Notes under the pieces: generated by a model
What the model was told of the DNA's origin: nothing
What the model saw: the letters and a program-made list of their open reading frames with translations, nothing else
Databases searched by the model: none
DNA from: a virus
Taxonomy: Duplodnaviria; Caudoviricetes
Length of the DNA: 64,000 bases
Virus record (IMG/VR): IMGVR_UViG_3300042139_000023
Strand: one strand, 5' to 3'
In this document: positions 16,177 to 16,886 of the stretch, piece after piece
How positions within the stretch are numbered: the first letter of the stretch is position 1
How the letters are laid out: the number at the start of each line of letters is the position of its first letter
Program-made: the position numbers and the translations under genes

Positions 16177-16611
16177 GTGACGTACGAGAAGGACGAGGTC
16201 TACGGCACGACGACGCGCCGGACTCTGGCGTACACGCGCGCCCAGGACGAGCTGCTCACGGCAGACTTCCGGCCCCGCGCGGTGCCTGCGCCTGTTCAGC
16301 CCCAGGAGCGCATGGCCCCGCTGCCGCCCGAGGAGACCAGCCCGTACGGACCGGAGGCGATCGTCCGGGCCCGCGAGATGGACTACGAGCTGACGACACG
16401 CATCCAGCAGGAGTCGCCGTACGTGGCGCAGGAGGTGGTCGAGCACAAGATCCACGACTACCGGCTGTACGTCGGCATGTGGATCGTGGCCGGTCTGAGC
16501 GCCGTGACGGCCTTCCTCACGTTCGACCTCGTCCACCTGGCCATAGCCGGTGTCGCGGTCGTCTTCGCTCTGATGTCCTCCCCCGGTCAGCAGTACCGGG
16601 ATGCGGATTGA
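16177..16611 (+). CDS. Membrane protein with two C-terminal TM helices
   Basis: GTG 16177 (alternative ATG 16117); C-terminal LYVGMWIVAGLSAVTAFLTF and LAIAGVAVVFALM. Confidence 0.65.
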   Translation: MTYEKDEVYGTTTRRTLAYTRAQDELLTADFRPRAVPAPVQPQERMAPLPPEETSPYGPEAIVRAREMDYELTTRIQQESPYVAQEVVEHKIHDYRLYVGMWIVAGLSAVTAFLTFDLVHLAIAGVAVVFALMSSPGQQYRDAD

Positions 16612-16637
16612 CGCATCCAGCATGGCTGCCATAGACT
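16608..16637 (+). promoter_or_regulatory. Near-consensus HrdB-type promoter
   Basis: TTGACG (16608-16613), N18, TAGACT (16632-16637). Confidence 0.75.
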
Positions 16638-16664
16638 GAACTTACCCGAACGGAAGGGAAGTTC

Positions 16665-16886
16665 ATGGGAGTCCTCAAGCGCGTCAAGCGCCTCCTGATG
16701 CAGGGCGGCGGCGTGGCTGTCGTCGAGAACACCGGCCCGGCGACAGCCACCGATGGCGGCTCTGCGATCACCGGCTACAGCGGTCCGCCGCCGAAGCGCG
16801 GTCAGACCGTCGTCGTGAAGAACACCGGCCCCGCGACCGCATCTGGTCCCGGCAGCCGGGCCGTCTCCGGAATCGACTACACCTGA
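16665..16886 (+). CDS. Small protein made of two VV.NTGPATA...G..A..G pseudo-repeats
   Basis: VAVVENTGPATATDGGSAITGY and VVVKNTGPATASGPGSRAVSGI; RBS AAGGGA. Confidence 0.75.
   Translation: MGVLKRVKRLLMQGGGVAVVENTGPATATDGGSAITGYSGPPPKRGQTVVVKNTGPATASGPGSRAVSGIDYT

What the first reader, a model, noticed from the sequence alone, without database searches (positions are those of the whole stretch)
16608..16886. Strongly promoted 73-aa protein made of two amyloid-motif-like pseudo-repeats: possible decoy against NLR-type defence
Seen: near-consensus promoter TTGACG-N18-TAGACT drives a tiny protein consisting essentially of two copies of VV(E/K)NTGPATA-x3-G-x2-A(I/V)(T/S)G separated by a Pro/basic linker. 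Known: Streptomyces NLR-like (NACHT/NB-ARC-TPR) loci signal through short double-repeat amyloid motifs (BASS), and herpesviruses block RHIM amyloid signalling with decoy motifs. From memory only, similar TG.A.A..GG.A.TG strings occur at N-termini of Streptomyces NACHT/TPR proteins. Inference: a phage decoy that seeds or caps host signalling amyloids.
Basis: inference. Interest (0 to 1): 0.65.

Follow-up and report, generated by a model that had tools for sequence, protein, structure and literature searches.

The report
Phage mimic of host amyloid-signalling motif
A Streptomyces phage carries a tiny gene that copies the short repeated tag shared by the host's immune-sensor and cell-death proteins, probably to jam that alarm signal, a trick described for herpesviruses but not, as far as searched, for phages.

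Summary
The ORF (16665-16886, 73 aa) and its promoter-like site are real. The window is a cluster-BM-like Streptomyces phage; 7 of 7 BM records carry the gene, and the unrelated phage Coruscant has a motif-only copy that its relative Mandalore lacks.

The two repeats are homologous to a motif shared by the C-termini of small effectors and the N-termini of adjacent NB-ARC/TPR sensors in Streptomyces. A profile built only from standalone copies hits 140 of 11,374 host ORFs, all effector tails or sensor heads (reversed control 0). The phage record encodes no such sensor or effector.

The protein is a mosaic: first half sensor-like, second half effector-like (30 of 31 each). It has an Asn pair nearly absent from host copies and an N-terminal amphipathic helix. 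A model stacks it in register on the effector motif (0.63 vs control 0.00).

Best reading (0.6): a decoy that co-assembles with and jams host amyloid signalling. Not shown: expression, fibrils, that these host pairs stop phages, and inhibition rather than triggering. The BASS family number could not be checked.

The parts
16608..16637 (+). sigma-70-type promoter-like site (-35 TTGACG, 18 nt, -10 TAGACT); -35 overlaps the stop codon of the upstream membrane-protein gene
   Evidence: hexamers and spacing kept, 5' spacer variable, in BM-like loci
16622..16632 (.). 11-bp palindrome touching the -10 box, operator-like
   Evidence: sequence; perfect in all loci printed except one base in L139; role inferred
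16638..16664 (.). inverted repeat covering the likely start site and the ribosome-binding site (operator or RNA hairpin)
   Evidence: fold -12.2 kcal/mol, only site of its kind in the genome, outer arms conserved
16665..16886 (+). 73-aa motif-only protein (ortholog of Frankenweenie gp97, Satis gp89)
   Evidence: dN<dS in 12 of 12 pairwise comparisons with relatives
16665..16712 (+). residues 1-16: basic amphipathic helix, least conserved in sequence; possible membrane anchor
   Evidence: helix 3-11 at low pLDDT; moment >=0.6 in 23 of 31 and net positive in 27 of 31 standalone copies
16713..16793 (+). residues 17-43: repeat 1 plus the Tyr/Gly/Pro turn; sensor (NLR)-like half, driven mostly by residues 38-43
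   Evidence: NLR-like in 30 of 31 standalone copies; +31 bits for the window protein
16794..16805 (+). residues 44-47: basic end of the linker
16806..16883 (+). residues 48-73: repeat 2 plus IDYT tail; effector-like half, most conserved part, predicted contact face
   Evidence: effector-like in 30 of 31; 72-100% identity among relatives; interface 45-73
16886..17089 (+). 67-aa ribbon-helix-helix-like gene overlapping the stop codon by one base; probably co-transcribed, candidate regulator of the promoter
   Evidence: nearest named Atlas clusters are RHH-type at 0.92 with 145-151 shared features, a lead only; syntenic

Best explanation
A phage counter-defence decoy. Many Streptomyces carry a two-gene cassette: a small effector (two hydrophobic helices, or a helical Bell-like domain) ending in a double repeat, followed by an NB-ARC/TPR sensor starting with the same repeat [shown]. 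By analogy with HET-s/NWD2 and Bab/Agp, the activated sensor oligomerises, its repeats nucleate a beta-arch/amyloid stack, and templated effectors damage the membrane and abort infection [inferred]. The phage makes the repeat alone, from a conserved promoter, with no sensor and no killing domain [gene and site shown, expression inferred]. Its sensor-like first half and effector-like second half let it enter the stack. The Asn pair and extra beta-branched residues favour its stacking over the host's own, and the amphipathic helix keeps it at the membrane near the effector [inferred; one model supports contact]. Mixed or capped stacks dilute or sequester effector domains and sensor nuclei, so the signal is not passed on [inferred].
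For: Homology: HHalign 98.95%, E 1e-17, against 110 effectors. A standalone-only HMM hits 140 of 11,374 ORFs in 80 host loci: 76 effectors, 54 NB-ARC proteins, 10 others that by eye are sensor heads or helical effectors; 0 reversed ORFs. 62 of 80 loci have an adjacent NB-ARC gene, 56 of them with the motif upstream of the NTPase. Host-only HMMs find only this ORF among 2691 ORFs of the phage record (E 3.5e-17 and 1.8e-15; next 0.065), and no NB-ARC or effector. Target in at least 42 of 301 Streptomyces genomes; 0 of 29 inspected loci were motif-only genes. Present in two unrelated Streptomyces phage groups; accessory in one (2 of 89 FtsK-related records; absent between the two tRNA-Pro genes of Mandalore). 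Identity to host motifs (median 44%) exceeds cognate sensor-effector identity (median 39%). Asn before TG in both repeats in 29 of 31 standalone vs 0 of 75 effectors and 1 of 54 sensors. In 4 of 5 close relatives the protein is 65-72% identical where neighbours are 89-97%. Same six-strand pattern in models of the phage protein and the effector tail. Complex model 0.63 vs best control 0.00; mark reached by 58 of 80 solved and 2 of 110 mismatched pairs; runs share >=78% of contacts; partner pLDDT >=79; repeat 2 stacks in register on repeat 2.
Against: No expression, fibril or infection data. These host cassettes are not shown to be antiphage: no PADLOC hit for 3 effectors or 2 sensors, and only a few of 119 neighbours are defence genes, with no baseline. 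Sensor-side BASS motifs convert effector-side motifs, so a free motif may trigger rather than block. The gene is core in the BM lineage (7 of 7) rather than patchy. The motif region has 6 Pro, 2 Asn and 1 Gln in 57 residues, while BASS motifs are described as Q/N-enriched and Pro-poor. The complex pass may reflect homodimer-like similarity of the two chains, since controls were unrelated proteins. The 31 standalone rows are mostly relatives, so 30/31 and 29/31 are not independent counts. One standalone triple repeat lies on an Actinomadura chromosome, context unseen.
Confidence: 0.6

Rival explanations
1. Captured and repurposed: the repeat came from the host cassette (or a shared ancestor) but now self-assembles at the membrane for a phage function unrelated to host NLR signalling, as the first gene of an RHH-regulated operon.
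For: Core gene at a fixed position in all BM-like loci; overlaps an RHH-like gene and has operator-like palindromes; Asn pair suits self-stacking; most sampled Streptomyces genomes gave no match (259 of 301).
Against: Accessory occurrence among tRNA genes in an unrelated family. The effector-type tail and sensor-type turn are both retained. Fast change against near-identical neighbours.
Confidence: 0.18
2. Trigger rather than blocker: the free motif seeds the host effector on the phage's terms (timed membrane damage, exclusion of competing phages, or killing of neighbouring compartments).
For: Published sensor-side motifs seed effector-side motifs. The phage copy keeps a sensor-like first half and has more beta-branched residues than host copies. 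The complex model cannot tell blocking from seeding.
Against: Triggering abortive infection should harm a phage group whose member Frankenweenie is described as unlikely to be temperate. A housekeeping-type promoter upstream of the helicase suggests early expression (inferred). A lysis aid that works in only a minority of hosts is of little use.
Confidence: 0.13
3. Adaptor of a phage-borne or host signalling system: a motif-only relay that works with a sensor and effector encoded elsewhere.
For: A standalone triple repeat exists on a bacterial chromosome (P0010). The phage record is only 89% complete.
Against: No second motif, NB-ARC or effector ORF in the 168-kb record. One place per genome in 7 complete BM records. 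0 of 29 host loci were motif-only.
Confidence: 0.05
4. Neutral remnant, or chance similarity of a Gly/Ala/Thr-rich repeat.
For: Low-complexity composition. The single-sequence search also hit 4 long repeat proteins among 23 and a sub-threshold DUF4774.
Against: dN<dS, conserved promoter, E 1e-17 profile match, hits confined to effector tails and sensor heads with 0 reversed hits.
Confidence: 0.04

Closest known systems
BASS motifs of Bell/NLR gene pairs (Dyrka et al., 10.1101/2020.01.06.895854)
   Same: The host homologs show the defining layout: motif at the effector C-terminus and at the N-terminus of an adjacent collinear NB-ARC/TPR protein in Streptomyces. Some have a double repeat with a Pro/Gly linker on a helical effector and a single repeat on the sensor, as that paper describes for BASS1 and 6.
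   Different: The window protein is phage-encoded and motif-only. Most host effectors here are two-helix hydrophobic proteins, a type not named in the text read ('transmembrane' 0 occurrences), and many sensors carry two repeats. The family number could not be checked.
Herpesvirus RHIM decoys M45, ICP6, ICP10, ORF20 (passages of PMC13506858)
   Same: A virus encodes a copy of the host's amyloid signalling motif without the host effector; proposed to form non-signalling mixed amyloids.
   Different: No sequence relation to RHIM. M45's RHIM sits on a large ribonucleotide-reductase-like domain that may add steric blocking; this protein is 73 aa, so it would have to act by capping, dilution or sequestration. 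Function untested here.
Bab/Agp BASS11 antiphage system of E. coli (10.1101/2024.11.07.622273)
   Same: Shows that amyloid signalling from a sensor to a small membrane-targeting effector aborts phage infection, the kind of pathway this protein would block.
   Different: Different host and sensor (TPR-GreA/B-PIN) and a single ~24-aa motif; no phage-encoded inhibitor described ('decoy' 0, 'phage-encoded' 0).
HET-s/HELLF two-repeat beta-solenoid prion domains
   Same: Two pseudo-repeats with a flexible linker and three strands each; HELLF fibril 6EKA is the top row among 48,161 chains.
   Different: That match is weak (Z 2.3, rmsd 5.2, 48 aligned) and shows nothing alone. The complex model pairs repeat 2 with repeat 2, not the alternating HET-s register (that register is recalled).

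Membership tests
BASS-type NLR-associated signalling motif (host homologs) | same motif at effector C-terminus and at N-terminus of an adjacent NB-ARC/NACHT protein | tested here: met
   62 of 80 loci with adjacent NB-ARC, 56 with the motif upstream of it; Pfam NB-ARC above cut-off in 3 of 3 sensors scanned
BASS-type NLR-associated signalling motif (host homologs) | occurs in filamentous, multicellular bacteria | tested here: met
   80 of 80 loci from Streptomyces, Kitasatospora or Embleya; 42 of 301 genus-wide vs 3 of 401 phylum-wide at a stricter cut-off
BASS-type NLR-associated signalling motif (host homologs) | 20-25-residue unit with beta propensity, sometimes as pseudo-repeats with a Pro/Gly linker | tested here: met
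   AlphaFold2: three strands per repeat in phage protein (mean pLDDT 68.8) and effector tail (blocks 79-94)
BASS-type NLR-associated signalling motif (host homologs) | association with a Bell domain | tested here: inconclusive
   6 of 29 genus loci and 2 further loci carry the motif on helical domains; calling them Bell rests on recall, no Bell profile was available and Pfam gave no useful hit
BASS1-BASS11 (a numbered family) | match to the published profile or logo | not testable with these tools
   logos are in figures and pairs in supplementary tables, neither visible; a look-up of 10 candidate Bell-like proteins (6 found) did not list the paper's example accession
BASS-type motif / functional amyloid | forms cross-beta fibrils and cross-seeds the partner motif | not testable with these tools
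   bench property; complex model supports contact only; fold search weak
BASS-type motif | enriched in Q, N, G, V, I and depleted in K, P, L | tested here: inconclusive
   residues 17-73: G10, V7, I2, L0, but N2, Q1, P6, K2; no background test run
RHIM / BASS3 / PP | G-hydrophobic-Q-hydrophobic-G core | tested here: not met
   no such string in the protein; no RHIM row in Pfam at E<=1
Viral amyloid decoy (works like M45) | virus-encoded copy of a host signalling motif without the host effector or sensor | tested here: met
Viral amyloid decoy (works like M45) | co-assembles with the host motif | tested here: inconclusive
   model 0.63 vs best control 0.00 (58 of 80 solved, 2 of 110 mismatched reach the mark); may reflect likeness of the chains
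Viral amyloid decoy (works like M45) | blocks host cell death and rescues virus growth | not testable with these tools
   needs infection assays
DUF4774 (PF15999), the label on the Coruscant gene | score above the curated cut-off of 25 bits | tested here: not met
   18.7 bits (window) and 19.2 bits (Coruscant)

The most novel reading that the evidence does not exclude
Streptomyces phages of at least two unrelated groups encode a dedicated minimal amyloid decoy, a sensor/effector mosaic with its own Asn pair and membrane helix, that caps or poisons NLR-triggered amyloid signalling. It would be the first phage anti-defence protein acting by amyloid mimicry, and would mark a widespread two-helix-effector/NB-ARC-TPR cassette as an antiphage system.
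Probability: 0.5. Interest if true: 0.9.

Novelty: new variant of a known kind. Interest (0 to 1): 0.78.

Why it matters
In the papers read, bacterial amyloid signalling has one demonstrated antiphage example (E. coli Bab/Agp), and the many Streptomyces NLR/BASS pairs have no tested role. A phage-encoded copy of their motif, kept under selection in two phage groups, is indirect evidence that these pairs act against phages. It makes the question directly testable with cultured phages (Satis, Kradal, Frankenweenie, Coruscant versus Mandalore) and a two-gene host cassette. If it inhibits, amyloid-decoy immune evasion extends from herpesviruses to phages, and a 73-residue natural cap of a signalling amyloid becomes available for study.

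Tried and rejected
No family name: PHROGs 0, PADLOC 0, NCBIfam only DUF11 repeat below cut-off, PDB sequence profile best E 0.14, Foldseek PDB nothing at E<=0.001. The effector fold search was filled by generic helix pairs, best Z 7.0, uninformative. Atlas feature hits were 0.80 or lower; the top structure row was a 117-aa Actinomycetota cluster, TM 0.70, a lead only.

A genome scan with the phage alignment found no confirmed locus among 113 candidates. The longer-protein search gave 1 hit among 8000 scored. Viral scans with the Coruscant protein, the effector alignment and P0009 confirmed nothing. P0013 gave one hit at the end of a 482-aa ORF in L130, rejected as chance. So the phage origin of P0004, P0005, P0007, P0009, P0011, P0013 and P0018 is unshown. 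The metagenome scan returned 10 loci, all BM-like by synteny, one identical to the window. RNA runs held at most 0.10 of the words and gave no usable cover of the ORF.

Cognate sensor-effector pairs are no more alike than non-cognate (0.377 vs 0.370). Proline capping was rejected as a general mechanism (Pro at positions 25 and 56 in only 8 and 6 of 31). The tree (65 rows: 19 of 31 standalone plus Coruscant, P0015, P0016; 19 of 75 effectors; 18 of 54 sensors; 6 helical) groups 21 of 22 standalone rows at weak support 83/87; one origin is neither shown nor excluded, and no donor can be named. Neighbourhood scan: MADS mad3 x2, JetC, Cas1e, GajB and PDC-M28B among 119 ORFs, top 25 of 59 families shown, no baseline, inconclusive. 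L097 was dropped as a probable off-frame hit.

Literature: no phage-encoded amyloid-motif decoy was found in searches; subscription journals are mostly not covered.

Full report
Observation. The ORF 16665-16886 encodes 73 aa: a 16-residue basic amphipathic N-terminus, repeat 1 (17-37), a Tyr/Gly/Pro and basic linker (38-47), repeat 2 (48-69) and an IDYT tail. The repeat is beyond chance (1 of 3000 shuffles). The promoter-like site is at the stated place. Alone it is weak evidence (4 such sites in the genome vs 1.3 expected) and its -35 box overlaps a stop codon. But both boxes and a 17-18-nt spacing are kept, with a variable 5' spacer, in 8 of 9 loci by pattern (the ninth was cut by my offset) and in all 14 loci printed, read by eye; several of these are near-duplicates. 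It resembles the Streptomyces HrdB consensus (recalled). Two conserved palindromes and an overlapping RHH-like gene (a lead) suggest a regulated operon. Strength and expression are unmeasured.

Source and distribution. The window lies in a 168-kb virus record, 89% complete. The protein is 93% identical to Frankenweenie gp97 and 63-70% to Satis, Kradal, EhyElimayoE, Quantum, JustBecause and Kela. These are the same 7 records whose helicase is at least 80% identical to the window's, so the gene is core in this cluster-BM lineage (cluster named in PMC10652959). A 62-aa motif-only copy lies between two tRNA-Pro genes of Coruscant (Stanwilliamsviridae). It has that genome's low GC3 (0.46 vs 0.43 for FtsK) and a matching predicted fold (rmsd 1.1 over 55 columns). 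Only the 2 Coruscant records of 89 FtsK-related records hit, and Mandalore (FtsK 94%, an unverified record) has an unrelated 118-nt spacer there. Further standalone copies with one to three repeats exist. For several the origin is unknown, and one is on an Actinomadura chromosome.

What the repeat is. tblastn against plasmids gave 21 records at E<=10, 15 of them Streptomyces. I opened 4 of the 21; all 4 were a 117-125-aa gene ending in the double repeat, followed by a TPR protein starting with it. The 3 sensors scanned have NB-ARC and TPR domains above cut-off. The small protein family has at least 322 clusters and models as two hydrophobic helices plus six strands. I fetched 80 of 98 confirmed host loci using patterns from the helical part. 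A profile built only from the 31 standalone copies hit 140 of 11,374 stop-to-stop ORFs at E<0.01: 76 effectors, 54 NB-ARC proteins and 10 others (by eye 8 sensor heads, including 4 on a different P-loop NTPase, and 2 helical effectors); reversed ORFs gave 0. 62 of 80 loci have an adjacent NB-ARC gene, 56 with the motif upstream of it; 6 fell below the threshold and 18 had no NB-ARC hit nearby. The effector hits are partly circular, since the family was found through the phage protein; the sensor hits are not. A genus-wide search found the motif in 42 of 301 genomes, a lower bound as only 19 candidates per genome were scored. Of 29 loci inspected, 18 carried it on the two-helix effector, 4 on other hydrophobic-helix proteins, 6 on helical Bell-like domains (name recalled), 1 on a broken effector, and 0 on a motif-only gene. 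Profile-profile probability is 98.95%. Conversely, host-only profiles find only this ORF among 2691 in the phage record, with no NB-ARC or effector. This is the layout that defines BASS pairs.

Features special to the standalone copy. Position-specific scoring makes residues 17-43 sensor-like in 30 of 31 copies and 48-73 effector-like in 30 of 31. Repeat 1 alone is nearly neutral (+1.6 bits), so the sensor signal comes mainly from residues 38-43. Asn precedes TG in both repeats in 29 of 31, against 0 of 75 effectors and 1 of 54 sensors, and the first strands hold more large hydrophobic residues. These rows are related and not independent. The gene has dN<dS in 12 of 12 comparisons, with repeat 2 best kept. 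Against L007, L008, L009 and L136 it is 65-72% identical while its neighbours are 89-97%; against Frankenweenie it is 93%, like its neighbours. dS is also raised in those four, so allele exchange is as likely as faster change. Sensor N-termini often start with a short Trp/Arg-rich stretch (41 of 54 by a loose pattern that also reads upstream of the true start), which the phage helix may echo.

Structure. The model has a low-confidence helix and six strands, mean pLDDT 68.8. The best PDB row is the HELLF prion fibril at Z 2.3, rmsd 5.2, 48 aligned, too weak to count. The complex with an effector tail scored 0.63 (runs 0.63, 0.64, 0.43) against a best control of 0.00. The mark is reached by 58 of 80 solved and 2 of 110 mismatched pairs; runs share at least 78% of contacts and partner pLDDT is at least 79. 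Its best contacts pair equivalent residues of the two second repeats, that is in-register stacking. Because the chains resemble each other, the pass may show likeness rather than binding, and it cannot separate blocking from seeding.

Mechanism. Most likely (0.6) the protein is a decoy that enters the sensor-effector stack without a killing domain, so that nuclei are capped or effectors diluted. Shown: homology, orphan state in the phage, selection, spread over two phage groups, mosaic character. Inferred: amyloid state, antiphage role of the host cassette (PADLOC silent; neighbours inconclusive), early expression, inhibition. Rivals are repurposing for a phage-internal job (0.18), deliberate triggering (0.13), an adaptor role (0.05) and a remnant (0.04).

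Comparison and novelty. It works like herpesvirus RHIM decoys but is not a RHIM. Its host homologs behave like BASS pairs, but the family number is unverified because figures and supplementary tables could not be seen; those tables might already list this motif family. Papers seen: 10.1101/2020.01.06.895854 (abstract, all Results, first part of Discussion, supporting legends, passages); 10.1101/2024.11.07.622273 (abstract, sections 4 and 10, passages); passages only of PMC12261475, PMC8086366, PMC13506858, PMC12881547 and PMC12254948; first of two parts of PMC10652959; listing only of PMC6687918.

Verdict. A real gene, a real and specific likeness to a host NLR signalling motif, and a plausible but untested counter-defence role. 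New variant of a known kind; interest 0.78.

Noticed in passing
host loci L012-L091, L099-L127: A large Streptomyces family (at least 322 clusters) of ~118-aa two-helix proteins with a C-terminal double repeat, upstream of NB-ARC/TPR genes. No Pfam, NCBIfam or PADLOC name for those scanned; a candidate undescribed effector of amyloid signalling.
   Followed up: partly
L028, L042, L053, L084, L105, L117: The same motif heads other sensor types (a different P-loop NTPase, and an unidentified one in L117), and it ends at least four kinds of effector, so the motif is a swappable module.
   Followed up: no
proteins P0015, P0016 (contigs of 1.5 and 35 kb, context not seen): The Asn-type double repeat is embedded in the middle of 164-168-aa proteins with beta-rich flanks and no Pfam hit above cut-off; they group loosely with the standalone copies.
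   Followed up: partly
proteins P0008, P0004, P0010: Repeat number varies: a 42-aa one-repeat form, a 97-aa three-repeat form, and a 108-aa three-repeat form on an Actinomadura citrea chromosome.
   Followed up: no
window 16622-16664: Two conserved palindromes at the promoter; the second would hide the ribosome-binding site only if transcription starts upstream of its 5' arm.
   Followed up: partly
window 16886-17089 and about 17097-17280: RHH-like gene and a small HTH gene (so annotated in Satis) follow directly; possible autoregulated operon leading to the helicase.
   Followed up: partly
window 17960-17989: A second promoter-like site (TTGGAA-18-TAGAAT with TG extension) ahead of the HTH gene and helicase.
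   Followed up: no
L005 2977-3165: The Coruscant gene's label DUF4774 rests on a sub-threshold match (19.2 bits, cut-off 25) and is probably a mislabel.
   Followed up: yes
L002 and neighbours in L012-L090: Host cassettes sit in varied, often transposase-rich places, one next to a type I-E CRISPR-Cas locus; several are frameshifted or lack the sensor.
   Followed up: partly
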